Shown piece after piece: positions 3,245-39,828 of a stretch of 64,000 bases of DNA. The position numbers were made by a program, and so were the translations under genes. The stretch comes from Bacillales bacterium (GTDB taxonomy: Bacteria > Bacillota > Bacilli > Bacillales > JAVBJX01): positions 20,992 through 84,991 of the forward strand of contig JAVBJX010000005.1 of the NCBI GenBank assembly GCA_031546705.1, in the 5' to 3' direction. Position 1 is the stretch's first letter, and each line of letters begins with the position of its first letter. The notes beneath the pieces are model-generated. The model was not told the origin of the DNA. It was given only the letters and a program-made list of their open reading frames with translations, and searched no databases.

Positions 3245-6200
3245 ATGAGTTTTTTTACAAGATTTAGTTTGAAAAATGCCGTAGCTGTGCTTATTATTTC
3301 GGCATTATTAATTGCTGGGGGAGTGTATTCCTTTTCTAAATTGAAAGTGGATTTATTTCCAAATATTGAGTTTCCGATTGTATCAGTCGAATTTATTTAT
3401 CCAGGGGCTTCACCAACAGATATTGATACGGAAGTTATTTCTAAAGTAGAAAGTCAGTTAAAAGGTATTGAAGGCGTGAAGAGTATGACTTCTTCCATCG
3501 CTGAAAATGTTGGTTTTATTAACTTAGAATTTCCTTTTGATACCGATTTGGACAAGGTGGAAAGACAAGTAGATACGATTATTAAAGAAGCAAAAATTCC
3601 AGACAATGCCGAGTCAGCAGTTAATCGTTTTTCATTTAGTATGATGCCAATTTACAATATTTCTTTATTTGCTAAAGGAGATACGAATTTACAAGCATTC
3701 TTAAATGATACGGTTATTCCAGAACTAAAAAAAGTTAATGGTGTAAACTCTGTATCCGTTGGTGGAAAGAAAGCAGAACTACTAGAAATCACCGTTGATA
3801 AAGACAAATTAGGGCAAGCGGGACTCAGTCTTTCACAAGTGAAAGAGCAAATTAACGAGAAATTTTTATCGTTCCCAGTTGGAGCAATGACAAGTAATTC
3901 AATGAAAATTCCTGTACGGGTGCAAGAAAAAATTGAAACGATTGATAAACTAAAAAATCTGCCACTATCATCACCAATTCCAAATGCAAAACCAGTGAAA
4001 TTAAGTGATGTAGCAATAATTGAAACAATCACAAAACAAACAGATTTAACTCGTTACAATCTCAAAGAATCTTTATCTATGGCAATTACAAAGAAACAAG
4101 ATGCCAATACAGTAGAAATATCTGAAAAAGTTATTGAAGTATTAGACAAATATAGTGACAAAATGAGTTACGCAATCGGGCTTGATTCAGCAAAGGAAAT
4201 TAAATCATCTGTTGATACATTAATGCGTGAAGGGTTACTAGGAGCATTATTTGCTTCACTTGCCGTACTCATCTTTTTACGAAACTTTAGAGCAACAATT
4301 ATTGCTATCATTTCGATTCCAATGTCTTTACTTATCTCAACGATTTTCTTACATCAATTAGATATTTCATTAAATATGATGACTCTTGGTGGGATGGCAG
4401 TTGCTGTTGGTCGAGTGGTCGATGACTCGATTGTTGTTATTGAAAATATTTTTAGACGGATTCGTAAATCAAAAGATGGTTTAAATAATGAGCTTATTCT
4501 CGATTCAACAAAAGAAATTTTACAAGCGATTACGTCATCAACGATTACAACTGTTGTCGTATTTTTACCACTCGGACTTGTTGGTGGACTTACAGGAAAA
4601 TTCTTTATGCCATTTGCTTTAACAATTGTTTTCTCCCTACTTGCTTCCTTACTTGTAGCGATTACGATTGTGCCAATTTTGGCTAGATTTTCATTCACTA
4701 AAGTGCCACCCGATGAAAAAGAAGGCACACTACAACTCACGTATGCCAAAGCAATTACGTGGTCATTACGTCATAAAGCAATCGTTTTAGTTTCATCTAT
4801 TGCCTTACTTGTTGGCTCATTCGCCATTGTTCCATCACTAGGATTTACGTTCATTCCGAATGAGGAACTAAAAACATTTACAGCAAGTATTCAATTACCA
4901 GCAGCAACAACGCTAGAAAAAACAAATGAAACTTCCTTAAAAGTAGAACAAATGCTAGATAAAGAGCCAGAAATTGCTGAAGTAACTGCAAGTATTGGCG
5001 GACGTGATCCAGCTACTTATGTTCCAAGTGAAAGTCAATCTAACTACTTTATTAATGTAAAAGAGGGAACAAAACTTACCGAATATCTTGCTACTCTTGG
5101 AAAGAAAATAGAAGACATCGCAGGAAATGGTGCAAAAGTTTCCTTGCAAGAACTACAAAATGGACCACCATCAAACAGTAATGTCACAATTGATTTGTAT
5201 TCTACCGATTTAGATGCACTACAAAAATCAGCAAAAGAAGTAGAAGAGTATCTACAAAAACGTGATGATTTGAAATATGTAACAAATAATTTCTCTGAGA
5301 AACAAAAACAACTTATTGTTAATATTGACCCAGAAAAAGCAGCTAAATACGGTGTATCAGGTTTCCAAATTCTAGGAACAATTGCTGACCAAACAAAAGC
5401 GGTTGATATGGGCATCTTAAAACTTGATGGAAAAGAAAGAACGGTTCAACTAGCTTATAATAAAGATGTAACATCGAAAAAACAACTAGAAGACACAATG
5501 ATTTTCACCAAGCTCGGACCAGTTAAAGTAACTGAAATGGCAACCATTGAAGAAGCAAATATCTTTACATCGATTCAAAAAAATGATGGAAAAGTATTTG
5601 CCCAAGTCACAGGTCAAGTGATTGGAAATGATGTGCAAGCAACCACAACGAAAGTCATTGAAGCTGTGAAAAATGATATTAAGCTACCAAGCAACGTTTC
5701 ATTTGAAGGTGGTGGCGGTAGTGACGAAACAATGGAGATGTTCCAGCAATTAGCAATGGCAATGGCAATTGCAGTTGGACTTGTCTACATCACAATGCTT
5801 GTAGCATTTGGTAAAGCAAGAATTCCATTTATTATTCTTTCATCACTAATCTTCGTGCCAATTGGCTCATTGCTTGGATTGTTCCTAGCAGGTGAACCAA
5901 TGTCAGTCAGTGTGATGATTGGACTCTTAATGCTAATAGGAATTGTAACAACCAATGCAATTGTATTAGTTGATAGAATCGGACAAAATCGTGAGAAAAA
6001 AGGAATGAAAATTCATGATGCACTTGTGGAAGCAGGGAAAACTCGTTTGCGTCCGATTTTAATGACGGCATTTGCAACGATTGCTGCACTCATTCCGCTT
6101 GCTTTAAGTTCATCATCTGGAACTTTAATTTCTAAAGGGCTGGCAATTACTGTTATTGGCGGATTAACTTCTTCCACATTATTAACACTGATTATTATTC

Positions 6201-6256
6201 CAGTTGTGTATGAGTTATTTTTCTTTCGTCAAGTGAAGAAAGAGAGATTAAAATAG
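3245..6256 (+). CDS. RND-family efflux transporter (AcrB/SwrC-like), 12-TM type
   Basis: 1003-aa ORF with good SD. Typical RND N-terminus (FTRFSLKNAVAVLIISALLIAGGVYS..L.VDLFPNIEFP) and two hydrophobic blocks separated by large soluble loops. Confidence 0.85.
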   Translation: MSFFTRFSLKNAVAVLIISALLIAGGVYSFSKLKVDLFPNIEFPIVSVEFIYPGASPTDIDTEVISKVESQLKGIEGVKSMTSSIAENVGFINLEFPFDTDLDKVERQVDTIIKEAKIPDNAESAVNRFSFSMMPIYNISLFAKGDTNLQAFLNDTVIPELKKVNGVNSVSVGGKKAELLEITVDKDKLGQAGLSLSQVKEQINEKFLSFPVGAMTSNSMKIPVRVQEKIETIDKLKNLPLSSPIPNAKPVKLSDVAIIETITKQTDLTRYNLKESLSMAITKKQDANTVEISEKVIEVLDKYSDKMSYAIGLDSAKEIKSSVDTLMREGLLGALFASLAVLIFLRNFRATIIAIISIPMSLLISTIFLHQLDISLNMMTLGGMAVAVGRVVDDSIVVIENIFRRIRKSKDGLNNELILDSTKEILQAITSSTITTVVVFLPLGLVGGLTGKFFMPFALTIVFSLLASLLVAITIVPILARFSFTKVPPDEKEGTLQLTYAKAITWSLRHKAIVLVSSIALLVGSFAIVPSLGFTFIPNEELKTFTASIQLPAATTLEKTNETSLKVEQMLDKEPEIAEVTASIGGRDPATYVPSESQSNYFINVKEGTKLTEYLATLGKKIEDIAGNGAKVSLQELQNGPPSNSNVTIDLYSTDLDALQKSAKEVEEYLQKRDDLKYVTNNFSEKQKQLIVNIDPEKAAKYGVSGFQILGTIADQTKAVDMGILKLDGKERTVQLAYNKDVTSKKQLEDTMIFTKLGPVKVTEMATIEEANIFTSIQKNDGKVFAQVTGQVIGNDVQATTTKVIEAVKNDIKLPSNVSFEGGGGSDETMEMFQQLAMAMAIAVGLVYITMLVAFGKARIPFIILSSLIFVPIGSLLGLFLAGEPMSVSVMIGLLMLIGIVTTNAIVLVDRIGQNREKKGMKIHDALVEAGKTRLRPILMTAFATIAALIPLALSSSSGTLISKGLAITVIGGLTSSTLLTLIIIPVVYELFFFRQVKKERLK

Positions 6257-6265
6257 TATCTAAGA

Positions 6266-6301
6266 AATCGTTTGCCTATAAAAAGGTGAACGATTTTTTT
6301 G
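6266..6301 (+). terminator. Putative intrinsic terminator after the RND gene
   Basis: AATCGTT..AACGATT 7-bp stem with a 16-nt loop, followed by a T-run. Confidence 0.45.
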
Positions 6302-6402
6302 TGGAAAAATTTGAGGATATTTTGTTGATATTATTTTTCTTTATGATATTATTTAGTTAAATACTTAATTAACTAATCATTGAATTGAAAGAGGTGATTT
6401 AT

Positions 6403-6663
6403 TTGAATGAAACATTTAAAGCATTATCTGATCCGACACGAAGAAAAATTCTTGAACTATTAAAAGAAAGTGATTTAACAGCTGGAGAAATTCATGAACA
6501 TTTTGATATGTCTAAGCCAAGTATTTCGCAACACTTAAAAATTCTTAAAAACGCTAGACTTGTTCATGACATCAAAAAGGGGCAGTTTGTGTGTTATTCC
6601 ATTAACACAACTGTACTTCAAGATTTAATTGGCTGGGCATATTCTGTTTCTAAATCAGAATAA
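6403..6663 (+). CDS. ArsR/SdpR-family winged-helix transcriptional repressor
   Basis: FKALSDPTRRKILELL..GEI...F.MSKPSISQHLKIL motif. I prefer the TTG at 6403 (6 nt after GAGGTG) over the track start at 6385. Confidence 0.8.
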   Translation: MNETFKALSDPTRRKILELLKESDLTAGEIHEHFDMSKPSISQHLKILKNARLVHDIKKGQFVCYSINTTVLQDLIGWAYSVSKSE

Positions 6664-6696
6664 AAAGAATCTAATACCTAAAAAGGAGAAATTAAG

Positions 6697-7335
6697 ATGA
6701 AAAAACATATTTTACCATTACTAATGATTATTACTTCATTCATTATGTGGGCATTTTTCTATAACAAATTACCTGCCGAGTTGCCAACTCATTGGAATGC
6801 AAGCGGTGAAGCGGATGGGTTTTCTTCCAAACTTACAACTTTTTTTATGTCTAATGGCATGATGGTTTTGATGTATGTTATGTTTCTGATTCTACCAAAA
6901 ATTGATCCGAAAAAGATAAATTACAAGTATTTTTCTAAAGGATATTCAAGCATTGTCATTGGGATTATGATTTTGTTTTTTGCGATTAATCTTGGAACTA
7001 TCTACATTGGTTTGGGGCATGAATTGAAAATGGAGCGTTTGATTGTTATTTTAATCGGTGTGTTATTTTTATTTGTTGGAAATTATATGCAACAAGTGAA
7101 ATCGAATTATTTTATGGGGATTCGTACACCATGGACATTAAGTAACGAAACCGTTTGGAACAAGACACATCGAGTAGGTTCAAAAGTATTTATGATTGCG
7201 GGGATTTTGATAATGGTGACAGTTTTCTTACCACCAAGCATGATGATATGGGCGATTATTACAATTGCTTTTCTTATGTCAGCTATACCAATTGTTTATT
7301 CTTATGTTTTGTATAAGAAAATTACTACAGAGTAG
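6697..7335 (+). CDS. SdpI/YhfL-family membrane (immunity-type) protein with DUF1648-like N-terminus
   Basis: 212 aa, multi-TM. LP..LPTHWNASGEADGF N-terminal motif and NY.MGIRTPWTL..E.VW..THR motif typical of the SdpI family. Directly follows an SdpR-like gene. Confidence 0.75.
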   Translation: MKKHILPLLMIITSFIMWAFFYNKLPAELPTHWNASGEADGFSSKLTTFFMSNGMMVLMYVMFLILPKIDPKKINYKYFSKGYSSIVIGIMILFFAINLGTIYIGLGHELKMERLIVILIGVLFLFVGNYMQQVKSNYFMGIRTPWTLSNETVWNKTHRVGSKVFMIAGILIMVTVFLPPSMMIWAIITIAFLMSAIPIVYSYVLYKKITTE

Positions 7336-7364
7336 ATCCTTCTTTCAGTGAAATAAAAAAAAAA

Positions 7365-7408
7365 GCAGTTATTTCTAGGCGTAGTGCTTAGAAGGTAACT
7401 GCTTTTTT
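7365..7408 (+). terminator. Intrinsic terminator after the sdpI-like gene
   Basis: Long imperfect stem GCAGTTATTTCTAGG..CTTAGAAGGTAACTGC followed by TTTTTT. Confidence 0.7.
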
Positions 7409-7523
7409 ATTTATAAATCAAATTATTTGTTTTTTTGCGAAATAACAACGTGAATACAACTTAATTCTGCTATAATTCATATAACGAAATATATAAACCA
7501 TTCGTTGAAATGGGGCGTTTCAT

Positions 7524-8243
7524 ATGACAAAAATTGCTTTGTGTGATGATAATCAACAATTTATGAAAAATATATCAGAACTAATCCATGATTGTATGAA
7601 GCAAGAAAAAATTAAAGTGAAATTATATTTATTTAACAGCGGAACAAACTTAATAAATGCCTATAAACAAACTGGAAATCTATTTGATATTGTACTTTTG
7701 GATATTGATATGCCAGATATGAATGGAATGGAAACAGCAAAATATATTCGTCAGTATGATGACCAGTGTATGTTAATATTTCTTACGTCTATGGACGATC
7801 AAGTGTATAAAGTATTTGAATTTAATACATTTCGCTTTATACGGAAAAAGTATTATGAAAAAGAACTACATGCTGCACTTTTGGATGCAATTAAATGTTT
7901 GGAAGAGAAAGAGATTAAGTATGAATTCAAAACAAAAGACGAAGTTGTCAAACTATCTACGAACGAAATATTGTATTTTGAGATGGTCAATAGAAATGTG
8001 GAAATGCATACTTTGCATCGGCCATATACACTTACAATGTCTATTTTCAAAGAAATATCGGATAAGTTTTCCGATAAAGGTTTTGTTAGTGTCTATAAAG
8101 GTGCTTTAGTAAATTTGAGATATATAAAAAGTGTAAAAAAGATGCAGATTGAGTTGGATAATGGGGAAGTTTTGGGTGTATCAAGACAAAGAATGGCGGA
8201 TGTGAAGAGAGCTTTTTTTGAGTTTGAAAGAGGTGAGTTTTGA
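7524..8243 (+). CDS. agrA: LytTR-family response regulator (AgrA-like)
   Basis: N-terminal receiver (IALCDDN..VLLDIDMPDMNG..IFLTS) and a C-terminal LytTR-type domain (..ILYFE...R.V..HT......SI.E....L....F...YKGALVNL..I). Confidence 0.8.
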   Translation: MTKIALCDDNQQFMKNISELIHDCMKQEKIKVKLYLFNSGTNLINAYKQTGNLFDIVLLDIDMPDMNGMETAKYIRQYDDQCMLIFLTSMDDQVYKVFEFNTFRFIRKKYYEKELHAALLDAIKCLEEKEIKYEFKTKDEVVKLSTNEILYFEMVNRNVEMHTLHRPYTLTMSIFKEISDKFSDKGFVSVYKGALVNLRYIKSVKKMQIELDNGEVLGVSRQRMADVKRAFFEFERGEF

Positions 8244-9547
8244 TGACTTTATTTTATCTTTCTTTTGAATATATTTTTGGTTTGCTAGAGTTTTTACTGT
8301 TGTATATGTTTTTCAGTTCTATTTTTCAAAAATATGACAGGCTAAAATCGTACTGGTATTTTCTAGTAATTTTTGGGATGTCAATTACTGTATTTTTAAT
8401 GTCTTCTATTCAGTTGTATTCGGTATATAAAAGTATAATAAGTACGATTTTAATGATTCTCTATTCCTTTTTATTTGATACTACTATAAAAAACCGCTTC
8501 TTTTATAGCTTTATGTTTATTGCAGTGCAAGTATTGTGCGAATTAACGATTATCCAATCCACCATATATTTTCTTGGAAACACAAGTGATAAATTAATTA
8601 TGAATATGACGATGGATCGAATAGTATTGACGTTTATTATTAAAACAGTCATGTTTATTTTGTTGAAATTAATTAGTGAATCAGTCACAAGAACAAATGA
8701 AATGTTACCAAAAAAATATTGGTTTCTTGTATTTGGATTATTTATTATTACAACAATTAATATGTTAGTTGTATTTGATATGAGTTTAAAAATCAAAGAA
8801 GAATCCCAAACTTCGCTATATCTAGTATTTATGTGTGCAAGTTTACTGATGATTGATATAGTGGTATACACCATGTTTGTTAAACTAAACACCTATTATT
8901 ACAATCAACAAATAGCGAATATGACAGCCATGCAATACAAGGCTACAGAGCAACATTTCATAGCAATAAAATTGTACAATGATGAAATGAGAAAAATCCA
9001 CCATGATTTCAATAATCATATCCAGTGTATGACAATTCTTATTCAAAATCAAAAAAATGAGGATTTGATAGATTATATTTTTGCACTGAAAGAGGGGTAT
9101 GAAAGAATACCAACTATTATAAGAACAGGAAATGAAATTGTGGATGCTGTGTTAAATCAAAAGAAAGTACAAGCTGAACAGAACCACATTGATTTTCAAG
9201 TGAAGGCGGTAGTTTCACCTGACATGAAGATAAACTCTACTGATTTAAGTGCATTATTATTTAATAGTTTAGATAATGCCATAGAAGCTAATCTAAAGAT
9301 TGCTAACAAAGATCAAAGAATGATAAAAATAAATATCGCTCCAAAAAAAGGCTATCTATATATTGATGTGACAAACTCTATGGTTACTTCAAAAAATTTT
9401 ACATTCCAAACAAGTAAATCGGATAAAAAAACTCATGGTTTAGGTTTAAAAATCATGAAAAACATTACAAAAAAATATAATGGCGACATTCATCATAAGA
9501 TAGAAGATGATGTTGTTATCCTGTCCATAGCTATTGAAATACTTTAA
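8243..9547 (+). CDS. agrC: Multi-TM GHKL sensor histidine kinase, HPK10/AgrC-like
   Basis: TGATG overlap with the regulator gene. Six or seven N-terminal TM helices. H-box KIHHDFNNH typical of AgrC-type kinases. C-terminal N-box and G-box (NSLDNAIEA ... KKTHGLGLKI). Confidence 0.8.
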   Translation: MTLFYLSFEYIFGLLEFLLLYMFFSSIFQKYDRLKSYWYFLVIFGMSITVFLMSSIQLYSVYKSIISTILMILYSFLFDTTIKNRFFYSFMFIAVQVLCELTIIQSTIYFLGNTSDKLIMNMTMDRIVLTFIIKTVMFILLKLISESVTRTNEMLPKKYWFLVFGLFIITTINMLVVFDMSLKIKEESQTSLYLVFMCASLLMIDIVVYTMFVKLNTYYYNQQIANMTAMQYKATEQHFIAIKLYNDEMRKIHHDFNNHIQCMTILIQNQKNEDLIDYIFALKEGYERIPTIIRTGNEIVDAVLNQKKVQAEQNHIDFQVKAVVSPDMKINSTDLSALLFNSLDNAIEANLKIANKDQRMIKINIAPKKGYLYIDVTNSMVTSKNFTFQTSKSDKKTHGLGLKIMKNITKKYNGDIHHKIEDDVVILSIAIEIL

Positions 9548-9560
9548 ATTTACCAATTTG

Positions 9561-9611
9561 ACAAAAAAACATACCAGTTCCACAAAAATCGACATAATAA
9601 ACAAATAATAT
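9561..9611 (+). promoter_or_regulatory. Candidate LytTR (AgrA-type) direct repeats overlapping the -35 position of a putative agrBD promoter
   Basis: ACAAAAA at 9561-9567 and again at 9582-9588, a 21-bp period. TAATAT -10 candidate at 9606-9611, 17 nt after the second repeat. Confidence 0.3.
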
Positions 9612-9646
9612 GTTACGCTTTCAACAAGTAAACGAGGTGTTTGAAA

Positions 9647-10240
9647 ATGCTAAGAAAACTTGCAGGAAGTGTAACTTTTTTATTGAAGAAAAATAGAATT
9701 ATAGAAAAAGAAGATTCTGAGATTTATTCTTATGGACTAGAGCTATTGATTTCTAATGGAATTACATTGTTAGCTATTGTAAGTACAGGAGCAATACTAA
9801 ATAAATTGGATTTAACATTTATCTTCCTACTAGTATTTTGTGGATTAAGGATTTTTACAGGTGGTTACCATGCAAAAAGTTTTTGGGGATGTTTTCTGAT
9901 TTCAAATATAACCTATCTAGTTATCATGATAGGTAGCTTATTAGTAGCTTCTTTAATACAAGGAGAATTAGGGCTTTTATTTACATTTGTTTCTTTATTA
10001 GTAATATATAATTTCGCTCCAGTAGAACATCAAAATAAACTGAAATCAGATTCTGATATTTTAAAAAATAGAGCATTTAGTAGACACATATCCATATATG
10101 TTTTAGGAATTTGTTTGCTGATGTACACATTAGGAGGAGTTTTTGAAAAATATGTATTTGTGATTGGCTGTTCGTTATTGGCTGTTGCCATTAACATAGT
10201 AGTTAGTTTGAACAATAAAGGAGGTGAGAAAAATGAGTGA
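9647..10240 (+). CDS. agrB: AgrB-family membrane endopeptidase (autoinducer-peptide maturation)
   Basis: Multi-TM protein with a GGYHAKSFWGC motif; the His and Cys are 7 residues apart, as for the AgrB catalytic pair. ATG at 9647 is preferred (7 nt after GAGGTG) over the TTG at 9641. Confidence 0.85.
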   Translation: MLRKLAGSVTFLLKKNRIIEKEDSEIYSYGLELLISNGITLLAIVSTGAILNKLDLTFIFLLVFCGLRIFTGGYHAKSFWGCFLISNITYLVIMIGSLLVASLIQGELGLLFTFVSLLVIYNFAPVEHQNKLKSDSDILKNRAFSRHISIYVLGICLLMYTLGGVFEKYVFVIGCSLLAVAINIVVSLNNKGGEKNE

Positions 10241-10394
10241 GTTAAAGAGAAGTATTTTAAAGTTAGTTGCAAAATCAGCAAAGAAGACAGCTTTATTTTC
10301 ACCGCATACCATGTCTTCGTACTTTACTTACGAACCGAAAATGCCAGAACAGTTAAGGGGAAAGTTGGAAATTAAAGAAGTAGGTGAAGAGTAG
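10233..10394 (+). CDS. agrD: AgrD-like autoinducing-peptide precursor (53 aa; not in the ORF track)
   Basis: ATG overlaps the agrB stop by 8 nt, with GGAGGTGAG upstream. Sequence: MSELKRSILKLVAKSAKKTALFSPHTMSSYFTYEPKMPEQLRGKLEIKEVGEE. It has an amphipathic basic N-helix, a short Ser-containing core and a conserved acidic YEPKxP..L recognition tail. Confidence 0.75.
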   Translation: MSELKRSILKLVAKSAKKTALFSPHTMSSYFTYEPKMPEQLRGKLEIKEVGEE

Positions 10395-10563
10395 TTTAAT
10401 ACGGTAGCTAGGAAGGATATGTTTAACATATCTCAATTACAATGAACACACGAATACAAATAAGAATTGGCTTTGAAAGACCTGACTAATTCAGGAGATA
10501 TCTTGATTCTTTTTTGTAGAATGTGAATGAAAATTATCATAATAAACTTAGGAGGTCACAATC

Positions 10564-10911
10564 ATGAAATTCGTAAAACGTTTAGTCGGTTCAGTTGTTT
10601 TATGTTCATCACTTTTTACTTTTGCTGGTAGTTTGTCTGCAAGTGCAAGTGGGATGGAAATACAGCCAAGGGTTGAAGCATGTCCAGTCTACGGTGCTCA
10701 TCAATATAATGGTCAGTCATCACTTTACCAAGACGGTACTAGGACAGCAATCAATTCAGTCTATAGGGGGACTGGATCAGATGGAGCTCCTGTATTTGAA
10801 AATTGCACAGAAACATTTGGAATCATGAAATATAAAAAAATCTGTGCTTGTGGTGATTACAAAGTAACTTATTCACATGACCAAATGCTAAAACATTCAA
10901 TTAAGCATTAA
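10564..10911 (+). CDS. Small secreted protein of unknown function (4 Cys in the mature part)
   Basis: Strong SD (AGGAGG). Sec signal peptide with an ASA-type cleavage site (..SLSASASG). No family recognised. Confidence 0.7.
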   Translation: MKFVKRLVGSVVLCSSLFTFAGSLSASASGMEIQPRVEACPVYGAHQYNGQSSLYQDGTRTAINSVYRGTGSDGAPVFENCTETFGIMKYKKICACGDYKVTYSHDQMLKHSIKH

Positions 10912-10925
10912 TAATTTTATTTAAC

Positions 10926-10965
10926 AGAAGTATTTCACAGGGTAAAATTATTGTGAAATACTTCT
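10926..10965 (+). terminator. Intrinsic terminator
   Basis: Perfect 14-bp stem AGAAGTATTTCACA..TGTGAAATACTTCT directly after the stop codon. Confidence 0.75.
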
Positions 10966-11251
10966 AATGTTATTTTATTAAGTATACAATGAAAGATTTT
11001 CAGAAAAATAATCAAAAAAATATAGACTCTACCCCAAAATCAATTCTTGACGAAATAGTATAAGGAAAAGTAATAAAAAAACATTTGAGTAGCTGTTACA
11101 TACAAACAAAGGATTATTTTTGGCATGTAACTGAAAAACATATGAGCTAATTTATGGCAAGAACAGATTTTAGGAAATACCCAAAATATATATACGAATA
11201 ATTTATTGAAATATTAGATATACACTAAAAAATACAAGGAGAACGAATACT

Positions 11252-13009
11252 ATGTCTAAAAGATTCCACAAAATTTTATCCATCCTTGCTTTATTTACAT
11301 TTACCATTTTAACTGGCTGTGAAATAACATTGTCATCTCTAAAAAATGAGCACTCAATTTCATCTATCCAAGAAACAATTGATTATTTATCTTCAGAAAA
11401 ACTAGAAGGACGTTTAGTTGGAACTAACGGAAATGAGGATGCAGGCAATTATTTGGCGGAGCAGTTCAAAAGTTTAAATCTTCTTCCGTATAGTGGAGAT
11501 AGTTTTCTAGTTCCATATAAGCAAGAAATATATGATACAGGTGAGCAGTCTTTACAATTAACAAAGAATAACCAAGTCACCACTTTTCAACATGAAAAAG
11601 ATTTTTTTGAAACCCATATTGGAAATGCGAATGTTATAGGAGAAGTGACAGTTGATAAGAAGCAACCAACAAAAAATAAAATCATTGCTATTGAAAATTT
11701 TAATGAGCTATCAAAAGATAGAAATCAAACAAAGCTTATATTTGTAAAGAGGAATCCTTTTATGAAAGTACCACGAATGACGCAAAGTAACACAACACCT
11801 ATGGTGCAAGTAAGTGAGGAGGTTTTTAAGCAATTAACAGAACCAAATGTGATAGTTACATATAAAAGTAACTGGTTGAAAAAAACAATCACAGCTAATA
11901 ATGTTATAGGAAAACTTTCAAATGGACATGACCATCCGCATGAGGAAGCCATTGTTATATCGGCTCACTTTGATGGTATTGGAAAAATAAATAATCAAAC
12001 AGTTAAAGGTACACTTGACAATGCAAGTGGCGTTGCTACATTATTAGATATTGTTCCAGAGTTATCAAAACTGGGAACTGACTATCATCGAGATATTATC
12101 ATTGTAGCTTTCAATGGAGAAGAATCAGGATTAAAAGGAAGTAAAGATTTTGTTGAGAACTTAAAATCTACATATAATCGTATAATGAATGTGAATATTG
12201 ATTGTGTGGGAACAAGTTATAAGGTGTCTGTTTTAGGAGAAGCAGAAAGTGAGTACACAAAGTTTACTTTAGATTATTTTAATCATCTTGTGAAACCAGA
12301 TTTTTATATGGAAATAGGTGACATGGTGAGCGATCACCAATCATTTTTAGATGCTGGATATGAAGGGATTACTTTTGGGACAGTACCAAATGAATACAAA
12401 CAGATTCACACGGTTAATGATAATCAACCAATTAATGTAAATATAGTGGAGAAACTAAGTGAAACCATTTCAAAATTTGTACAAAAATTAGAAGAAGCCG
12501 AATTTCCATCCCCACATGCTATAAAAAGTACAGCATTTGAAGATTGTTCTCAAATTAACAAACTAGTACAGAACATAAATGGATATATCTTAAAAACTTG
12601 TGAAGGAACAATCGCAGAGAATACACAAGGGAAAAAAGTACAAAATCTTTTTCTGGATTATGTAAAAGAAAAATTAGCCCTTTCACTTGATATTTGGAGA
12701 AATGAAGTGCCAAGTGTGGTAAATTCCAATGAGAAAAAATATGAGCCAATTCAACAAGGAGATTGGACATTTTATTTTCCGAAATTTCACCCTCATGTGG
12801 TATCATTCAAAAAGGGAAATGATGTTTTTTGGATATCTATTATGAATGGAAAAATCATGAAATTTAATAGTAATGGTAGTATTGCTTCAATTGCAGACGC
12901 TCTTTCACTTAAAAATACTGAACAGTTTATGAAGTGGTGGACAGATGAGAAGTTGGAAGAAAATGTGTCAAAGATTATTGAATCTATGAATAACCCATCG
13001 GTTAAGTAA
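11252..13009 (+). CDS. M28-family metallopeptidase lipoprotein with a C-terminal extension
   Basis: Lipobox LTGC. M28 motifs NVIGKL, ISAHFDG, DNASGVATLL, AFNGEESGLKGS and SDHQSF. About 170 extra C-terminal residues of unknown function. Confidence 0.8.
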   Translation: MSKRFHKILSILALFTFTILTGCEITLSSLKNEHSISSIQETIDYLSSEKLEGRLVGTNGNEDAGNYLAEQFKSLNLLPYSGDSFLVPYKQEIYDTGEQSLQLTKNNQVTTFQHEKDFFETHIGNANVIGEVTVDKKQPTKNKIIAIENFNELSKDRNQTKLIFVKRNPFMKVPRMTQSNTTPMVQVSEEVFKQLTEPNVIVTYKSNWLKKTITANNVIGKLSNGHDHPHEEAIVISAHFDGIGKINNQTVKGTLDNASGVATLLDIVPELSKLGTDYHRDIIIVAFNGEESGLKGSKDFVENLKSTYNRIMNVNIDCVGTSYKVSVLGEAESEYTKFTLDYFNHLVKPDFYMEIGDMVSDHQSFLDAGYEGITFGTVPNEYKQIHTVNDNQPINVNIVEKLSETISKFVQKLEEAEFPSPHAIKSTAFEDCSQINKLVQNINGYILKTCEGTIAENTQGKKVQNLFLDYVKEKLALSLDIWRNEVPSVVNSNEKKYEPIQQGDWTFYFPKFHPHVVSFKKGNDVFWISIMNGKIMKFNSNGSIASIADALSLKNTEQFMKWWTDEKLEENVSKIIESMNNPSVK

Positions 13010-22607: not shown

Positions 22608-24905
22608 ATGTTAAAAAATGAATTAAAGAAAATATTTTCTAGCCCAAAAATCTTCATTCCGATTATTGCTGTGTTATTTATTCCAGTTTTGTATAGTGGG
22701 ATTTTACTATGGGCATTTTGGGATCCTTATGGCCAGTTAGATAAATTGCCTGTTGCTGTTGTCAATCAAGATGCTGGAACAACTTTTAATAACAAAACAT
22801 TAAATGTCGGACATGAATTAGTAACGAGTCTAAAGGACAATAAAAAATTTGCTTGGAAATTCGTCGATGAACAAACCGCACGTAAAGGGTTAGATGATGG
22901 TACATATTATATGGAACTAATCATCCCAAAAGATTTCTCAGCCAATGCGGCAACACTCAGTGATGAGAATCCAAAAAAATTAGAAATGATGTATATTCCA
23001 AATGGATCAAGAAACTTTGTCGCTACACAAATCGGTAGTTCGGCAATGGAGAAAGTGAAAGAAGAAGTTGCGAGTAATATATCTTCAACGTATGCAAAAG
23101 TGATGTTTGATAATATTCATATACTAGCAAATGGACTCGTAAATGCGTCTAGCGGAGCAGAAAAAATTTCTACTGGCATTCATTCGGCTTCAGATGGAAT
23201 GACTACACTTTCTAGTGGTGTATCAACTGCAAATAATGCTTCGGAGAAAATAGCAACTAATTTAGACATGTTGGCAACAAGCACAACTCAATTTAAACAA
23301 GGAATGAGTAGTGCCAAACAAGGATCACAACAACTACAAACAGGGTTAACTACATTAAATAATAGAGTACCACAGCTAATTACTGGGGAAAAGCAATTAT
23401 TACAAGGTGTGAACAAAGTAAAATCTGGTGCAATAACTATTCATGAAAAAATGAATCAAGTAGGAGACGGCTTACAACAATTAAATAAAAATATGCCTCT
23501 TCTAGTAAATGGAGCAACGGAAGCAAGTGATGGTGCTACAAAACTTGCGGGGGGTTTAACAAAATGGAATGAAGGTGCGACTACCACTTTAAATGGTGCA
23601 ACAAATGTAACGAACGGCTTACAACAATTAGTAGCAAAATTAACACAGTTACAATTGTCTTCAACTGATCCAGTCCAAAAAGCAACATATCAAACACTTC
23701 TGCAAAACACACAAGCTTTAGCAACTGGTAGTACACAAGTAGCTGGTGGAATAGCACAATTAACAAATTCTGCAACTCAGTTACAGCAAGGATCACAACA
23801 ACTTGCGACTGGTATTCAAACATTAGCAGAAAAACAACAACAAGTAGCAGGAGGTATTTCAAAACTTTCAACTGGACAACAGCAATTATTTACAGCAATG
23901 AATCAATTAGTAGCGGGTCAAACAAATATTTCAACCAATATGGGAATAGTTATTGGAAAAATGACCGAAATGCAAACGGGTGTGAACAAATTAACAACTG
24001 GTAGCAGAGAACTTGTAAATGGATTAACAAAACTCTCTAGTGGTGCAGTTGCACTTGAAAGTGGAGCAAAACAACTTGCTTCTGGGTCACATCAGTTATC
24101 AACTGGATTAATAAAATTAGTCGATGGAACAAGTCAACTTTCAACAGGCATGACGAAATTACAGACAGGAAGTAATGAACTACAAACAAAATTAGCTGAG
24201 GGGGCAAATGATGCTTCTAAAGTGAAAGCAACGGACAAAACATATGATATGTTTGCTAGACCTGTAGATTTACAAATCAATGATCTTCACAAAATACCGA
24301 ATTACGGAACAGGAATTACGCCATATTTTGCTTCTCTTGGTTTATTTGTTGGAGCATTATTATTAACGATTGTTTTTCCAGTACGTGAACCAGTTATTGT
24401 ACCGAAATCAGGGCTTCAATGGTTTTTTGGGAAATTTGGGGTGTTATTAATTGTTGGAGTGTTACAATCACTACTTTTAGATGCGATTTTGTTAATAGGA
24501 CTGGATTTGGATGTTCAAAATGTATTTTATTTCTTTCTAATGTCGCTAGTGACAAGTTTAACATTTTTAGCAATTGTTCAATTCCTAGTGACAATATTAG
24601 ATAATCCTGGTCGTTTCATTGCTATTATTTTACTGATTTTACAACTGGCAACGAGTGCCGGAACATTTCCATTAGAATTAGCTCCAGATGCACTCAAACC
24701 ATTACATGCATTTTTGCCAATGGCTTACTCAGTTGATGGATTTAGAGCAGTCATTTCCAGTGGAGATTTTTCGCAAATGTTTCATGATATGCTTATATTA
24801 GGTGTCTTTGCTGTAATTTGTATGGCTGGAACGATTGCTTACTTTGCAATGATGAAAAAAATTAAGTATACGAGAAGTTTGAAAGAAGAAGTAAGTACAT
24901 TATAG
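22608..24905 (+). CDS. yhgE: YhgE/Pip-family membrane protein (phage-infection-protein homologue)
   Basis: N-terminal TM plus PVAVVNQD motif. A long Q/T/L-rich repetitive extracytoplasmic region (L..G..QL..G repeats). C-terminal 5-TM ABC-2-like block. Confidence 0.85.
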   Translation: MLKNELKKIFSSPKIFIPIIAVLFIPVLYSGILLWAFWDPYGQLDKLPVAVVNQDAGTTFNNKTLNVGHELVTSLKDNKKFAWKFVDEQTARKGLDDGTYYMELIIPKDFSANAATLSDENPKKLEMMYIPNGSRNFVATQIGSSAMEKVKEEVASNISSTYAKVMFDNIHILANGLVNASSGAEKISTGIHSASDGMTTLSSGVSTANNASEKIATNLDMLATSTTQFKQGMSSAKQGSQQLQTGLTTLNNRVPQLITGEKQLLQGVNKVKSGAITIHEKMNQVGDGLQQLNKNMPLLVNGATEASDGATKLAGGLTKWNEGATTTLNGATNVTNGLQQLVAKLTQLQLSSTDPVQKATYQTLLQNTQALATGSTQVAGGIAQLTNSATQLQQGSQQLATGIQTLAEKQQQVAGGISKLSTGQQQLFTAMNQLVAGQTNISTNMGIVIGKMTEMQTGVNKLTTGSRELVNGLTKLSSGAVALESGAKQLASGSHQLSTGLIKLVDGTSQLSTGMTKLQTGSNELQTKLAEGANDASKVKATDKTYDMFARPVDLQINDLHKIPNYGTGITPYFASLGLFVGALLLTIVFPVREPVIVPKSGLQWFFGKFGVLLIVGVLQSLLLDAILLIGLDLDVQNVFYFFLMSLVTSLTFLAIVQFLVTILDNPGRFIAIILLILQLATSAGTFPLELAPDALKPLHAFLPMAYSVDGFRAVISSGDFSQMFHDMLILGVFAVICMAGTIAYFAMMKKIKYTRSLKEEVSTL

Positions 24906-25034
24906 GAATAGAGCCGTCTATTTTTCATAGGAAAAGCTATGAGAGGTAGGCGGTGTTTTTTTAATGTAAGTTGTTTTCGTAAAGATTGTTGCTCTTAATT
25001 TGAAAAGACACGTAATGAGTGTAATACTTGGTTA

Positions 25035-25526
25035 CTATTTTTTCATCCCTACTCTTACAAGTTGGCTGAACGGAATTTCCATTACATATCTTTTTGATGG
25101 ACAAAAAATAAACTGCTCCTCATCCAATAAATTGTCAAAACTAGCTATTACATTTTCTATCACTGTCTCAATTACAGGGTTCGAGCCAAAGGTAGTGGAA
25201 AATTTCTTCAAAAGATAAACCTGACTATTTTCAAAACCATGATTTTTAATAAATTTGGTAAGTTCCTCTGCATTTTCCACAATCTTTTTATTTCCCATTC
25301 TACTCCAATCAATTCTTCCATTCCCAGAAAAATCAAATGAATAGTATTTCGAGAATTCTTCATATAAAGTATCGCTTTCATATTCTTTCAAAACCACGAT
25401 GGTTTCTTTCAATATTAGTTCTTCGCAATATTCACTTGCAATCTGTTTATAAATTTCTTTTTCATCCCTTTCTTTTTCTTGTTGTAATTTTCGTTGTAAT
25501 CTTTTTTGTCTTTCTGTCCTGTCCAT
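25035..25526 (-). CDS. Hypothetical protein (charged N-terminal helix plus globular domain)
   Basis: 163-aa ORF with a good SD (AAGGAG). No family recognised. Confidence 0.55.
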   Translation of the reverse strand: MDRTERQKRLQRKLQQEKERDEKEIYKQIASEYCEELILKETIVVLKEYESDTLYEEFSKYYSFDFSGNGRIDWSRMGNKKIVENAEELTKFIKNHGFENSQVYLLKKFSTTFGSNPVIETVIENVIASFDNLLDEEQFIFCPSKRYVMEIPFSQLVRVGMKK

Positions 25527-25882
25527 AATATCTTAACTCCTTACTCTTTGAATGGTGATTTAATCGTTCTTGCTAAATCAAGACACAGTTTTACTTTTTA
25601 GGATTGAAATAGTTTTTGTTGTTCTTTTATTGGATAGTTTAGCGATATCTTTTAGGAAATTAATCATGTAAAAAGTCCCTTTGAACAGATTCTATGTTTC
25701 TATTATATATTCTGTCCAAAAGAACAATAATTAATACAAAAACAGCTTTAATGGCAGAGTATAAATAGGTGAAAATCTCAAAAAGATTTAATTTTTGCAT
25801 CTTTTTTAGTCGCTCTCCTAAAAATTATATAGTATAATACAAGAAATCATGTAGTAGAATGAACTTGATAGGAGGAGAATCA

Positions 25883-27394
25883 ATGAATATTGGTAGAAAT
25901 TTAACGATCAATACAAAAAGATATCCAAACAGGTGGGCTTTGACGTGTGAAGGTCGGACGTATACGTATGCACAATTAAATGAAAAAGTAAACAGTCTAG
26001 CAAATGGGTTACTAAAACAAGGATTTAAAAAAGGTGACAAAATTGCACTCTACATGAAAAACTCCGATGATTTTGTTATTGTATTTTATGCGATTATGAA
26101 AGCTGGTTGCGTAGCAGTACCAATAAATTTCCGTCTTGTGGCAACAGAAGCACGCTATATATTGGAGCAGTCTGAAAGCGTTATCATTTTCTGTGATGGA
26201 GAATTTGAAAAAGTAGTAGAGAATGCTAGTCAGTCTGTTTCTACATTGAAAAAAATAGTTGTTGTGTCTAATGAAAGTGAATATACAACCCTTGCCGAAA
26301 TGTATGCTTCTAATACAAATGAGCCAGATATTATTGTTGAACCTACGGATGATGCAGAAATTTTATATACATCAGGGACAACTGGACGACCAAAAGGTGC
26401 ATTATTCGACCATCAACGTATCGTAACATTAAATGCTATGCTAGCGATGGCTCTTGGATTTAGAGCGGAAGATCGTTTCTTACACATTGCTCCACTTTTT
26501 CATTGTGCCGCTTTAAATGTATTTCTGAATCCATTTATATGTGTTGGTGCAGGTCAAGTTATTCATCGTGATTTCAATCCTATTGCTGTACTCGAAACAA
26601 TTCAAGAATACAAGGTTACGAAATTTTTTGGTGTGCCTGCCATGTACAATGCTCTATTGCAAGTTCCAAATACAGCAGCTTATGATTTATCTTCTATTAC
26701 AAGTTGTATGTACGGAGCAGCTCCAATGGCTCCAGAGTTAATAAAAAAATGTATACAGTTACTTAAAACAGATCAGTTTTATAATATATGTGGTTTAACA
26801 GAGTCTGGTCCGACTGGAATAATTTTAAATCCAGAAGAACATAAGACAAAACTTGGTGCAGGTGGAAAGCCAATTCTTTATACCGAAGCCCGAGTAGTAA
26901 ATGATTTGATGGAAGATGTTCATCCGGGAGAAATTGGCGAATTTATTTTGCGTAGTCCATCCATTATGAAAGAGTATTATAGAAAGCCAGAGGAAACAGC
27001 AAAAACGTTTGTTGGTGATTGGCTCTTGACTGGTGATTTAGCAACGATTGATGAAGATGGATATATGACAATTGTTGACCGAAAGAAAGATATGATTATT
27101 TCAGGCGGTGAAAATGTCTATTCTGTTGAAGTAGAACAGGTGATGTATTATCATCCAAATGTCTTAGAAGTAGCAACGATTGGTGTGCCTGATGAGAAAT
27201 GGGGAGAAACAGTGGCTGTAGTTATTGTGACAAAAGATAAACAGCCAATTCCAATGGAAGAATTGCAAAGTTTTTGTAGAGAACATTTAGCAGGTTACAA
27301 AATTCCTAGAAAAGCATTTTTTGTCGATCAATTACCACGCAATGCTTCTGGAAAAATATTAAAATATAATTTACGGGATCAATTTACAAACTAA
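25883..27394 (+). CDS. AMP-dependent acyl-CoA synthetase/ligase
   Basis: ATG at 25883 after AGGAGGAG. Motifs ILYTSGTTGRPKG, YG..E, TGDLA..DEDGY..I.DRKKD.I.SGGENV and P..ASGKI.K. Confidence 0.85.
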   Translation: MNIGRNLTINTKRYPNRWALTCEGRTYTYAQLNEKVNSLANGLLKQGFKKGDKIALYMKNSDDFVIVFYAIMKAGCVAVPINFRLVATEARYILEQSESVIIFCDGEFEKVVENASQSVSTLKKIVVVSNESEYTTLAEMYASNTNEPDIIVEPTDDAEILYTSGTTGRPKGALFDHQRIVTLNAMLAMALGFRAEDRFLHIAPLFHCAALNVFLNPFICVGAGQVIHRDFNPIAVLETIQEYKVTKFFGVPAMYNALLQVPNTAAYDLSSITSCMYGAAPMAPELIKKCIQLLKTDQFYNICGLTESGPTGIILNPEEHKTKLGAGGKPILYTEARVVNDLMEDVHPGEIGEFILRSPSIMKEYYRKPEETAKTFVGDWLLTGDLATIDEDGYMTIVDRKKDMIISGGENVYSVEVEQVMYYHPNVLEVATIGVPDEKWGETVAVVIVTKDKQPIPMEELQSFCREHLAGYKIPRKAFFVDQLPRNASGKILKYNLRDQFTN

Positions 27395-37804: not shown

Positions 37805-38811
37805 AAGACATAGGAATACAACAACTTAACAAGATACCGGGTGTTTTACTTCCTTCCGACCTTTCAGTAATCAAATTTGAGGAAGTATCAAAAAACATGG
37901 AGCAGTTAATCGATCTTATGCCAATATTTTCTTCTAATTTACAAGAAGCTTTTATAGCCAATAATGAATCAAATTTTATGCAAAGTATAAAAGAAGGCAT
38001 TTCTCTGCTCTCAGCTGTATATGCTAGAAAATTAATCATTGATTTAGAAAAAATAATAAGTTACTTCAAAACTGGAGACAGAGAGGTCTGCGAAATATTT
38101 TTAGAGAAATTTATTTCAGAATTATTTACTTTGTCAATTGATATGCAAAAAGTTATGCATACCTCTATAGATTCAAAAGAAGCAATACTAAAAACTTCTA
38201 ATCAACTATTTAAATTTACAGCGATTCTCTCAGATTTGTCAGCAGTGAAATATTTAATAGACAATGTTGAGTTTGGACGAGCATTTGAAATGCTAAATGA
38301 TATACATGCTGTTGCATTCTTAACGCAGACATCTATGGCAAAACTTCATTTAAAAACCTATCGTCAAGAAGAAGCACTAGAATCAATACAAAGTTTAATA
38401 GATGAATTTACGCAAAAAATTGTGGAGACTAAAATAAGCAAATCTGACAGTAAGAAAAAAATATTGGCAGTTGATGATAGACCAGAAATTTTAATGGTAT
38501 TGTCTGAAGTTCTTAAAGATGATTATCACGTACTTTGTGTACCTTCAAGCGAGACTGCTCTTAAGGTCTTGGACAAACACGAGATTAGCTTATTTATATT
38601 AGATATAGGAATGCCAAATATGAATGGGATAGAACTTGCGAAACGTATTAAGTCTACATCAAAGTTTAAAGAAGTTCCGATTGTTTTTCTAACGGGTAAC
38701 GCCACAAGAGATTATTTACATCAAGCAATCCATGCAGGTGCAGCAGATTTCATTGTTAAACCTATCGTACAAGAAAATATTATTTATAGAGTGCAACAAT
38801 TATTAAATTAA
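37795..38811 (+). CDS. Response-regulator receiver protein with an N-terminal helical (HPt-like, His-less) domain and no output domain
   Basis: ATG 8 nt after AAGGAG; overlaps the upstream gene by 10 nt. Complete receiver: AVDDRPE, FILDIGMPNMNG, FLTG, VKP. Confidence 0.75.
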   Translation: MDIKDIGIQQLNKIPGVLLPSDLSVIKFEEVSKNMEQLIDLMPIFSSNLQEAFIANNESNFMQSIKEGISLLSAVYARKLIIDLEKIISYFKTGDREVCEIFLEKFISELFTLSIDMQKVMHTSIDSKEAILKTSNQLFKFTAILSDLSAVKYLIDNVEFGRAFEMLNDIHAVAFLTQTSMAKLHLKTYRQEEALESIQSLIDEFTQKIVETKISKSDSKKKILAVDDRPEILMVLSEVLKDDYHVLCVPSSETALKVLDKHEISLFILDIGMPNMNGIELAKRIKSTSKFKEVPIVFLTGNATRDYLHQAIHAGAADFIVKPIVQENIIYRVQQLLN

Positions 38812-38825
38812 TGTGGCGGTGACCT

Positions 38826-39818: not shown

Positions 39819-39828
39819 GAGGGCTTGT

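What the first reader, a model, noticed from the sequence alone, without database searches (positions are those of the whole stretch)
7524..10394. agr-type quorum-sensing locus with the non-canonical order agrA-agrC-agrB-agrD
A LytTR regulator, an HPK10/AgrC-type kinase (H-box HHDFNNH), an AgrB homologue (GGYHAKSFWGC) and a small AgrD-like ORF lie on one strand. There are start/stop overlaps at the regulator/kinase junction and at the agrB/agrD junction. The staphylococcal and listerial paradigm is agrBDCA. Here the two-component pair comes first and a 93-nt gap with its own candidate promoter precedes agrBD. The locus is very AT-rich, ATA-rich, and bounded by terminators (7365-7408 and 10926-10965), which is consistent with an accessory module.
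Basis: partly seen in the sequence, partly recalled or inferred. Interest (0 to 1): 0.65.

Follow-up and report, generated by a model that had tools for sequence, protein, structure and literature searches.

The report
Ordinary clostridial-style agr quorum-sensing locus
This is a real, intact peptide quorum-sensing (agr-type) gene set, but its regulator-kinase-first gene order is the usual one among its nearest relatives, so it is a divergent new member of a known kind, not a new arrangement.

Summary
All four gene calls hold. They are a LytTR response regulator (7524-8243), an AgrC-type HPK10 kinase (8243-9547), AgrB (9647-10240; PF04647, E 1.8e-37) and a 53-aa AgrD (10233-10394; TIGR04223, 31.8 bits against a cut-off of 19). 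The start/stop overlaps, the gap before agrB and both flanking terminators are confirmed.

The order A-C-B-D is not special. 16 of 28 named genomes carrying the nearest AgrB relatives have the same order on one strand. All are Clostridia or allied MAGs, at 39% identity or less. The closest AgrB among 1.84 billion representatives (41%) has it too.

In the window and in 9 of 18 such loci, a 20-21-bp-spaced direct repeat lies about 90-140 nt before agrB. This has the geometry of a LytTR box. The likely wiring is therefore agrAC from its own promoter and an AgrA-activated agrBD promoter.

AgrD has no cysteine. A serine sits five residues before the conserved YEPKxP tail, as in 12 of 21 relatives, which predicts a lactone ring S-S-Y-F-T.

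The host backbone looks Bacillaceae-like and has no close sequenced relative. The agr genes are rich in the rare codons ATA and AGA.

An orphan secreted 115-aa protein gene lies downstream.

The parts
7353..7414 (.). Strong hairpin terminator closing the upstream sdpR/sdpI-like operon. It is the left boundary of the module.
   Evidence: Inverted repeat of 19 nt. RNA fold -28.2 kcal/mol, z -7.9, 0 of 200 shuffles.
7468..7476 (+). Candidate extended -10 promoter element TGCTATAAT for agrA-agrC. No LytTR-type repeat lies nearby.
   Evidence: It is the only TGnTATAAT in 7301-11300. No direct repeats were found in 7330-7560. The function is inferred.
7524..8243 (+). agrA-like response regulator (239 aa): receiver domain (acidic pair D8/D9, predicted phospho-acceptor D60) plus a LytTR DNA-binding domain.
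   Evidence: PF00072 8.2e-17 and PF04397 3.3e-15. It is 42% identical to the regulator of the closest locus, L034. It scores only 31.5 bits against the staphylococcal AgrA equivalog, whose cut-off is 400.
8243..9547 (+). agrC-like HPK10 sensor kinase (434 aa from ATG 8243; alternative TTG 8240). It has about 7 TM helices in residues 1-213, an H-box at 253-259, N-box NSLDNA and G-box HGLG.
   Evidence: PF14501 HATPase_c_5 1.4e-18. The only PDB hit is S. aureus AgrC 6e52. Hydropathy. Motifs. RBS AGAGGTGAG lies before the ATG.
9546..9587 (+). Two tandem 21-nt repeats, AAATTTACCAATTTGACAAAA and AAACATACCAGTTCCACAAAA. The core boxes are at 9552-9560 and 9573-9581. This is the predicted AgrA (LytTR) binding site of the agrBD promoter.
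   Evidence: the repeat finder family D1, 76% identity, spacing 21. The pattern is unique in the window and occurs in 0 of 100 shuffles. 4 of 300 shuffles reach its score, and the same position and spacing recur in 9 of 18 related loci. The boxes resemble those of L006/L007, ACCATTTAGACA.
9606..9611 (+). Candidate -10 hexamer TAATAT. It lies 24 nt after the promoter-proximal box and has no good -35, as expected for an activator-dependent promoter.
   Evidence: Sequence inspection. Inferred, not demonstrated.
9647..10240 (+). agrB (197 aa from ATG 9647, RBS GAGGTG at 9634-9639; alternative TTG 9641). It is the membrane peptidase/cyclase, with the His75/Cys82 pair in GGYHAKSFWGC.
   Evidence: PF04647 1.8e-37. 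H75 and C82 are invariant in alignment A1. The nearest relative among 1.84 billion representatives is 41% identical.
10233..10394 (+). agrD (53 aa), the autoinducer precursor with no cysteine. Predicted ring S28-S29-Y30-F31-T32, with cleavage before Y33-E-P-K-M-P-E-Q-L.
   Evidence: TIGR04223 31.8 bits against a cut-off of 19. Ser aligns with the ring Cys or Ser of the relatives at position -5 from the [FYH][EQ]P motif. It is 49% identical to the L034 AgrD.
10564..10911 (+). Orphan 115-aa secreted protein gene with a signal peptide and 4 Cys in the mature part. It lies inside the terminator-bounded module and is a possible output or co-transcribed gene.
   Evidence: No Pfam or NCBIfam hit. No homologue found. 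One N-terminal hydrophobic segment. An RNA-library contig identical to 10371-10878 exists. No convincing terminator lies between agrD and this gene. The AF2 model has low confidence, pLDDT 57.8.
10922..10968 (+). Terminator with a 14-bp perfect stem. It is the right boundary of the module.
   Evidence: RNA fold -18.8 kcal/mol, z -5.9, 0 of 200 shuffles.

Best explanation
This is a complete, intact agr-type autoinducing-peptide quorum-sensing system of the clostridial 'agrAC then agrBD' architecture. It sits in a Bacillaceae-like chromosome.

Shown here:
- All four proteins match their families.
- The AgrB catalytic His/Cys pair is present.
- The receiver Asp and the kinase H, N and G boxes are present.
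- The gene pairs are translationally coupled.
- A 21-bp-spaced direct repeat sits in front of agrBD, at the same place as in relatives.

Inferred mechanism:
1. agrA-agrC are transcribed from their own promoter (TGCTATAAT at 7468-7476). With no terminator after agrC, read-through gives basal agrBD expression.
2. AgrB removes the AgrD tail before Y33 and closes a five-residue ring from Ser28 to Thr32. The product is a lactone autoinducer, not a thiolactone, and its N-terminal tail is unknown.
3. The exported peptide is sensed by the polytopic domain of AgrC, which phosphorylates AgrA on Asp60.
4. AgrA~P binds the repeats at 9546-9587 and boosts agrBD only. The positive feedback therefore acts on signal production and not on the receptor pair.
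5. The 115-aa secreted protein gene downstream probably shares the same transcript or is another output.
For: - Family matches.
- Invariant H75/C82 in AgrB.
- Kinase motifs and TM count.
- Overlaps and ribosome-binding sites.
- The repeat is unique in the window, is a 21-nt tandem, and is reached by 4 of 300 shuffles. Equivalent repeats lie 86-141 nt before agrB in L006, L007, L010, L011, L013, L015, L017, L020 and L026. In L034 and L037, 21-bp-spaced repeats were seen by eye in the printed gap sequences, not scored.
- No such repeat lies before agrA or before the 115-aa gene.
- Same order and coupling in the closest locus, L034: regulator 42%, kinase 28%, AgrB 41%, AgrD 49% identical.
- Ser at ring position -5 in 12 of 21 related AgrDs, Cys in 7.
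- Terminators occur only at the two ends.
- An RNA contig crosses the agrD/115-aa intergenic region.
- Serine-ring AIPs are known: S. pseudintermedius, E. faecalis GBAP, and one predicted for C. difficile agr2 (PMC12312760).
Against: - There are no functional data at all.
- In the one metatranscriptome that contains this organism (acsA fully covered), no contig covers 6004-10370. That span includes all of agrA, agrC and agrB and most of agrD. Expression of the agr genes is therefore not shown. These are assembled contigs, so absence is weak evidence.
- That same gap argues against simple co-transcription of agrBD with the 115-aa gene at equal levels.
- The proposed -10 and the agrAC promoter are only sequence matches. 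The consensus scan found no more promoter-like sites than in shuffles.
- The window's repeat is imperfect (16 of 21).
- The cleavage site and ring size rest on alignment with relatives whose peptides are themselves mostly uncharacterised.
Confidence: 0.78

Rival explanations
1. Single-operon reading. All four genes, and perhaps the 115-aa gene, are made only from the promoter upstream of agrA. The 21-nt repeat in the gap is either not a regulatory site or a chance feature. Any autoinduction would then act elsewhere or not at all.
For: There is no terminator between agrC and agrB. The gap is short, at 93-99 nt. The window's repeat is only 76% identical. Promoter-like matches in the region are no more frequent than in shuffles.
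Against: The ACCARTT-N14-ACCARTT pair is unique in 64 kb and absent from 100 shuffles. Repeats with the same spacing and the same distance from agrB recur in 9 of 18 related loci. Several of those also have a terminator hairpin, read by eye, between agrC and the repeats (L012, L013, L016, L026). This shows that two transcription units are the family norm.
Confidence: 0.1
2. The A-C-B-D order is a distinctive, new arrangement that marks a special accessory module of this lineage.
For: The order differs from the staphylococcal and listerial agrBDCA. The agr genes are rich in ATA and AGA relative to backbone genes. The AgrB has no relative above 41% identity.
Against: The same order is found in 16 of 28 named genomes with the nearest AgrBs and in L005, L034 and L037. 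The literature already lists C. difficile agr2 with the two-component genes first and notes split clostridial operons. GC3 is not different from the backbone.
Confidence: 0.04
3. Silent or decaying locus, or an 'eavesdropping' receptor. The genes are intact by chance or only partly used, for example AgrAC sensing foreign peptides. The system does not run a self-induced circuit in this host.
For: Rare-codon richness fits weak expression or foreign origin.
Against: All four frames are open, with conserved catalytic and phosphotransfer residues, good ribosome-binding sites and coupled starts. Quorum-sensing genes are typically low at low density, and contig absence is weak evidence.
Confidence: 0.08

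Closest known systems
Clostridioides difficile agr2 locus (strain R20291) and similar clostridial agr loci
   Same: It is a complete four-gene agr set. It is written in the literature with the two-component genes first: 'agrACBD', PMC4885068; 'agrC2A2B2D2', PMC12274312. The predicted AIP ring begins with Ser-Ser: NSA[SSWVA] (PMC12312760), against [SSYFT] here. AgrB relatives of the window are clostridial, including a C. difficile chromosome at 37% identity and phage CDMH1.
   Different: Sequence identity is low, at 41% or less to any AgrB. The host here has a Bacillaceae-like backbone. The literature is inconsistent about the exact agr2 order (the primer writes agrB2D2C2A2), and I could not check it directly. 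The C. difficile locus I retrieved (L014) is the C-B-D type without an adjacent regulator.
Staphylococcus aureus agrBDCA / RNAIII
   Same: The four protein families are the same. AgrB has the His/Cys pair. The kinase is HPK10 type, and its only PDB match is S. aureus AgrC. The regulator is LytTR type and binds paired repeats with a 21-bp period. The ring has five residues.
   Different: - The gene order is reversed.
- The autoinduced promoter probably drives only agrBD, not all four genes.
- No divergent RNAIII-like gene is present (no Rfam hit in the window).
- The ring nucleophile is serine, not cysteine.
- Scores against the staphylococcal equivalog models are far below cut-off: AgrA 31.5 against 400, AgrC 27.5 against 500, AgrB 26.3 against 282.
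Clostridium acetobutylicum agrBD + agrCA
   Same: Signal-production genes and sensing genes form separate transcription units (PMC12312760).
   Different: There agrBD precedes agrCA and the kinase comes before the regulator. The ring has six residues with Cys ([CVLVTL]).
Serine-lactone autoinducers: S. pseudintermedius AIP RIPT[STGFF] and E. faecalis GBAP QN[SPNIFGQWM] (fsr locus)
   Same: Ser replaces Cys as the ring nucleophile, giving a lactone (PMC12312760, PMC8251862).
   Different: The loci are different, with different order and ring size (9 residues in GBAP). Only the chemistry is analogous, and here it is predicted, not shown.
Listeria monocytogenes agrBDCA
   Same: By my recollection of the Listeria AgrD sequence, its tail (YEPKSP) matches the window's YEPKMP. 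The primer lists the AIP as A[CFMFV] (PMC12312760), which puts cleavage just before the Tyr, as predicted here.
   Different: Canonical order, Cys ring, and an AgrB that is not among the nearest relatives found here.

Membership tests
agr-type (AgrBDCA-family) peptide quorum sensing | AgrB-family membrane peptidase with the conserved His and Cys | tested here: met
   PF04647 1.8e-37, 128.9 bits against a cut-off of 23. H75 and C82 are invariant in alignment A1.
agr-type (AgrBDCA-family) peptide quorum sensing | Small AgrD precursor adjacent to agrB that matches the cyclic-lactone autoinducer model | tested here: met
   TIGR04223 31.6-31.8 bits against a cut-off of 19. It overlaps the agrB stop by 8 nt.
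agr-type (AgrBDCA-family) peptide quorum sensing | Ring-forming Cys or Ser five residues before the conserved acidic/Pro tail | tested here: met
   Ser28 lies at -5 from YEPKMP. The same column is Ser in 12 and Cys in 7 of 21 related AgrDs.
agr-type (AgrBDCA-family) peptide quorum sensing | HPK10-type kinase with a polytopic N-terminal sensor and a GHKL HATPase_c_5 domain | tested here: met
   PF14501 1.4e-18. About 7 TM segments. H, N and G boxes. The only PDB hit is S. aureus AgrC 6e52.
agr-type (AgrBDCA-family) peptide quorum sensing | LytTR-family response regulator | tested here: met
   PF00072 plus PF04397 3.3e-15.
agr-type (AgrBDCA-family) peptide quorum sensing | Paired direct repeats with a period of about 21 bp at an agr promoter (autoinduction site) | tested here: met
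   9546-9587. Binding itself was not tested.
agr-type (AgrBDCA-family) peptide quorum sensing | Production of a cyclic peptide and density-dependent autoinduction | not testable with these tools
   This needs peptide chemistry and reporter assays. The RNA data show no agr transcripts.
Staphylococcal agr orthologues (NCBIfam equivalogs AgrA NF046049, AgrC NF046015, AgrB NF002210) | Score above the curated equivalog cut-offs | tested here: not met
   31.5 against 400, 27.5 against 500 and 26.3 against 282. It belongs to the broad family, not to the staphylococcal subfamily.
Staphylococcal agr orthologues | Divergent RNAIII effector RNA next to the operon | tested here: not met
   No Rfam family reaches its gathering score anywhere in the window.
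Clostridial 'agrAC | agrBD' architecture | Regulator, then kinase, then repeat-bearing gap, then agrB, then agrD, all on one strand | tested here: met
   The window matches 16 of 28 named genomes plus L005, L034 and L037. Repeats are significant in 9 of 18 loci.

The most novel reading that the evidence does not exclude
A clostridial-type, serine-lactone agr system was captured by a so far unsampled Bacillaceae-like lineage that lives in an invertebrate gut. It was wired so that only signal synthesis is autoinduced. Its main local output would be an orphan secreted, cysteine-containing 115-aa protein with no detectable relatives, possibly a new density-controlled effector or toxin-like factor.
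Probability: 0.15. Interest if true: 0.45.

Novelty: new member of a known kind. Interest (0 to 1): 0.25.

Why it matters
The practical value is modest. The locus adds a very divergent agr system: no AgrB relative exceeds 41% identity among 1.84 billion cluster representatives. The host is a poorly sampled Bacillaceae-like gut bacterium.

The comparison made here is probably more useful than the locus itself. It supports three general points:
- In this large, mostly clostridial branch of the agr family, regulator-kinase-first order is the norm.
- The LytTR boxes sit between agrC and agrB, so feedback acts on signal production only.
- Serine is at least as common as cysteine at the ring position, so lactone autoinducers may be much less 'rare' than the staphylococcal literature suggests.

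These points are testable by peptide chemistry. They do not overturn any current view.

Tried and rejected
I could not count agr loci or look for further LytTR boxes in the whole genome, nor compare relatives by taxonomy. The fetch from genomes was reported shut as well.
- Exact look-up of the window's AgrB found no contig on record.
- The listing of cluster members showed that five window proteins, including AcsA, are singletons at 90% identity. No congeneric comparison is therefore possible.
- A Bacillaceae-like backbone is inferred only from aroA-ccpA...acsA gene content and order. The evidence is CcpA TIGR01481 at 514 bits, AcsA PRK04319 at 1014 bits and my knowledge of the B. subtilis map. 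The three ORFs between them gave no NCBIfam hit, so calling them acuCBA is a guess from size and position.
- LytTR-type repeats were sought before agrA and before the 115-aa gene, and none was found. A relaxed two-box scan of the window gave only weaker hits inside coding regions.
- The 115-aa protein has no family hit and no homologue. Its single-sequence AlphaFold model is too poor (pLDDT 57.8) to justify a fold search, so none was run.
- An RNA-run search with agrBD alone found nothing.
- Compositional evidence for horizontal transfer is mixed: GC3 is the same as the backbone, but ATA and AGA are enriched. I therefore do not claim transfer.
- Plasmid and phage collections hold only clostridial AgrB relatives at about 40% identity or less, so there is no sign that this locus is on a known mobile element.
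- The literature gives the C. difficile agr2 order inconsistently (agrACBD, agrC2A2B2D2, agrB2D2C2A2). I rely on my own synteny counts for this point, not on those names.
Full report
**Observation.**
- *Regulator:* 7524-8243 has a receiver domain (PF00072, 8.2e-17) and a LytTR domain (PF04397, 3.3e-15).
- *Kinase:* 8240/8243-9547 has the GHKL domain typical of AgrC-like kinases (PF14501 HATPase_c_5, 1.4e-18). Its only match among solved structures is the S. aureus AgrC kinase module 6e52. A hydropathy scan gives about seven membrane segments in the first 213 residues. The H-box HHDFNNH (253-259), N-box NSLDNA and HGLG are present.
- *AgrB:* 9641/9647-10240 matches PF04647 at 1.8e-37. The GGYH...C motif (His75, Cys82) is invariant among relatives.
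- *AgrD:* the small ORF passes the TIGR04223 model (31.6-31.8 bits, cut-off 19).

The likely starts are ATG 8243, ATG 9647 and ATG 10233. Each follows a GAGGTG-type ribosome-binding site. The regulator/kinase and agrB/agrD junctions overlap, as claimed. The flanking terminators fold far better than shuffles: 7353-7414 at z -7.9 and 10922-10968 at z -5.9. Neither the agrC-agrB gap nor the agrD-downstream gap holds a convincing terminator.

**Internal promoter region.** The gap after agrC begins with two tandem 21-nt units (9546-9587, AAATTTACCAATTTGACAAAA / AAACATACCAGTTCCACAAAA). The pair ACCARTT-N14-ACCARTT occurs once in the 64-kb window and in none of 100 shuffles. The 21-bp period is the geometry known for AgrA-type LytTR regulators (established knowledge). 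A TAATAT hexamer follows at 9606-9611 without a good -35, as expected for an activator-dependent promoter (inference). No such repeat lies before agrA, where a TGCTATAAT extended -10 stands at 7468-7476, or before the downstream gene.

**Relatives and gene order.** The AgrB is very isolated.
- A word-indexed search found nothing above 36% identity.
- An exhaustive HMMER search of 1.84 billion representatives found 5,750 family members, but the best is only 41% identical.
- That best hit (L034, a 25.6% GC metagenomic contig) has the same layout: a 238-aa LytTR regulator, a 437-aa kinase overlapping it by 4 nt, a gap that begins with repeats read by eye as 21-bp-spaced, then AgrB and an overlapping 45-aa AgrD.
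- Of the next hits, L037 is again A-C-B-D, L036 is an orphan agrBD, and two contigs are too short to judge.
- A pattern scan of one genome per species returned 28 loci. All are from Clostridia, Erysipelotrichales or similar MAGs, at 39% identity or less.
- tblastn with the window's proteins shows regulator-kinase-AgrB on one strand in 16 of them. The rest are divergent, convergent, B-first or C-B-A variants.
- Plasmid and phage collections hold only clostridial relatives, including C. difficile phage CDMH1 with agrC-agrB.

The literature already writes the C. difficile agr2 locus as 'agrACBD' or 'agrC2A2B2D2'. It also states that clostridial agrBD and agrCA can be separate operons. The order is therefore non-canonical only against the staphylococcal textbook case.

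**Conserved wiring.** In the 200 nt before agrB of 18 A-C-B loci, nine carry a 20-21-bp-spaced direct repeat that at most 13 of 300 shuffles reach (most reach it 0-2 times). The repeat lies 86-141 nt before the agrB start. The window's repeat lies 96 nt before agrB, and 4 of 300 shuffles reach it. The boxes of L006/L007 (ACCATTTAGACA) resemble the window's. Several relatives also show a terminator hairpin, read by eye, between agrC and the boxes. I read this as a family-wide design: agrAC forms one unit, agrBD forms a second, AgrA-activated unit, and the positive feedback falls on signal synthesis alone. In the window the missing terminator allows read-through for a basal signal.

**The peptide.** AgrD (MSELKRSILKLVAKSAKKTALFSPHTMSSYFTYEPKMPEQLRGKLEIKEVGEE) has no cysteine. 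I anchored 21 related AgrDs on the conserved [FYH][EQ]P..P tail. The residue five positions upstream is Ser in 12 (including the window, L034, L036 and L037), Cys in 7, and ambiguous in 2. This places the ring at S28-S-Y-F-T32 with cleavage before Tyr33 and predicts a lactone. Serine rings are known in S. pseudintermedius and E. faecalis GBAP and are predicted for C. difficile agr2 (NSA[SSWVA]). They are called rare in the clostridial AIP literature. In this branch of the family they are not rare.

**Host and origin.** The window carries aroA, ccpA (TIGR01481, 514 bits) and a Bacillus-type acsA (PRK04319, 1014 bits), in an order reminiscent of B. subtilis (the map is from my own knowledge). 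Earlier notes on this genome also call it Bacillus-like. Five window proteins, including AcsA, are singletons at 90% identity, so no close genome exists for comparison.

The agr genes have the same GC3 as the backbone. They use ATA for 35-41% of Ile codons, against 3-19% in backbone genes, and they use more AGA. This fits either foreign origin or weak expression, and I do not decide between them. Genome mining has already reported agrD genes in Bacillaceae (PMC12180512).

**Expression.** One invertebrate-gut metatranscriptome (X1) holds every sampled word of acsA. It also holds error-free contigs for several window genes. Within the module, only 10371-10878 is covered: the last codons of agrD, the intergenic region and most of the 115-aa gene. 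Nothing covers 6004-10370. The 115-aa gene is therefore expressed in vivo, while agr transcripts were not assembled. Contigs cannot show absence, strand or 5' ends. The 115-aa product has a signal peptide and four Cys, no family, no homologue and only a low-confidence model.

**Verdict.** The claimed oddity of the order is not, because it is the common layout of the clade to which this locus belongs. It is a new, highly divergent member of a known kind.

Noticed in passing
window 10564-10911: Orphan 115-aa secreted protein with a signal peptide and 4 Cys. It has no Pfam or NCBIfam hit and no homologue among 5.8 billion clusters. It lies between agrD and the module's terminator. An RNA-library contig identical to 10371-10878 shows it is transcribed in an invertebrate-gut metatranscriptome, while the agr genes are not seen there.
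   Followed up: partly
window 6385-7335: An SdpR-family autorepressor (NF033789, 131.5 bits against a cut-off of 100) and an SdpI-family membrane protein (PF13630 plus DUF1648) form a pair directly upstream of the agr module. No sdpABC-like toxin genes are nearby.
   Followed up: partly
related loci L001, L005, L010, L011, L014, L015, L017, L019, L034, L036, L037: In this mostly clostridial AgrB clade the predicted ring residue of AgrD is serine more often than cysteine (12 against 7 of 21). Lactone-type autoinducers may therefore be common in gut Clostridia, although they are described as rare.
   Followed up: partly
locus L025, about 75-215 nt upstream of its agrB: An AgrD-like ORF (...NSACSWFFHQPKVP...) lies before agrB, not after it. 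This gives an A-C-D-B order in a Lachnospiraceae MAG, another permutation within the same clade.
   Followed up: no
window, whole (metatranscriptome run X1): An invertebrate-gut metatranscriptome contains error-free contigs of several window genes: the RND pump at 3423-5845, acsA in full, and the ABC transporters. This points to the organism's habitat and offers a small expression survey.
   Followed up: partly
window 11252-13009, 35420-42246 and 22608-27394: The M28 peptidase, the hybrid-kinase island and an ABC-2/AMP-ligase block share the raised ATA share of Ile codons (0.26-0.33) seen in the agr genes. This suggests several accessory or weakly expressed blocks in this window.
   Followed up: no
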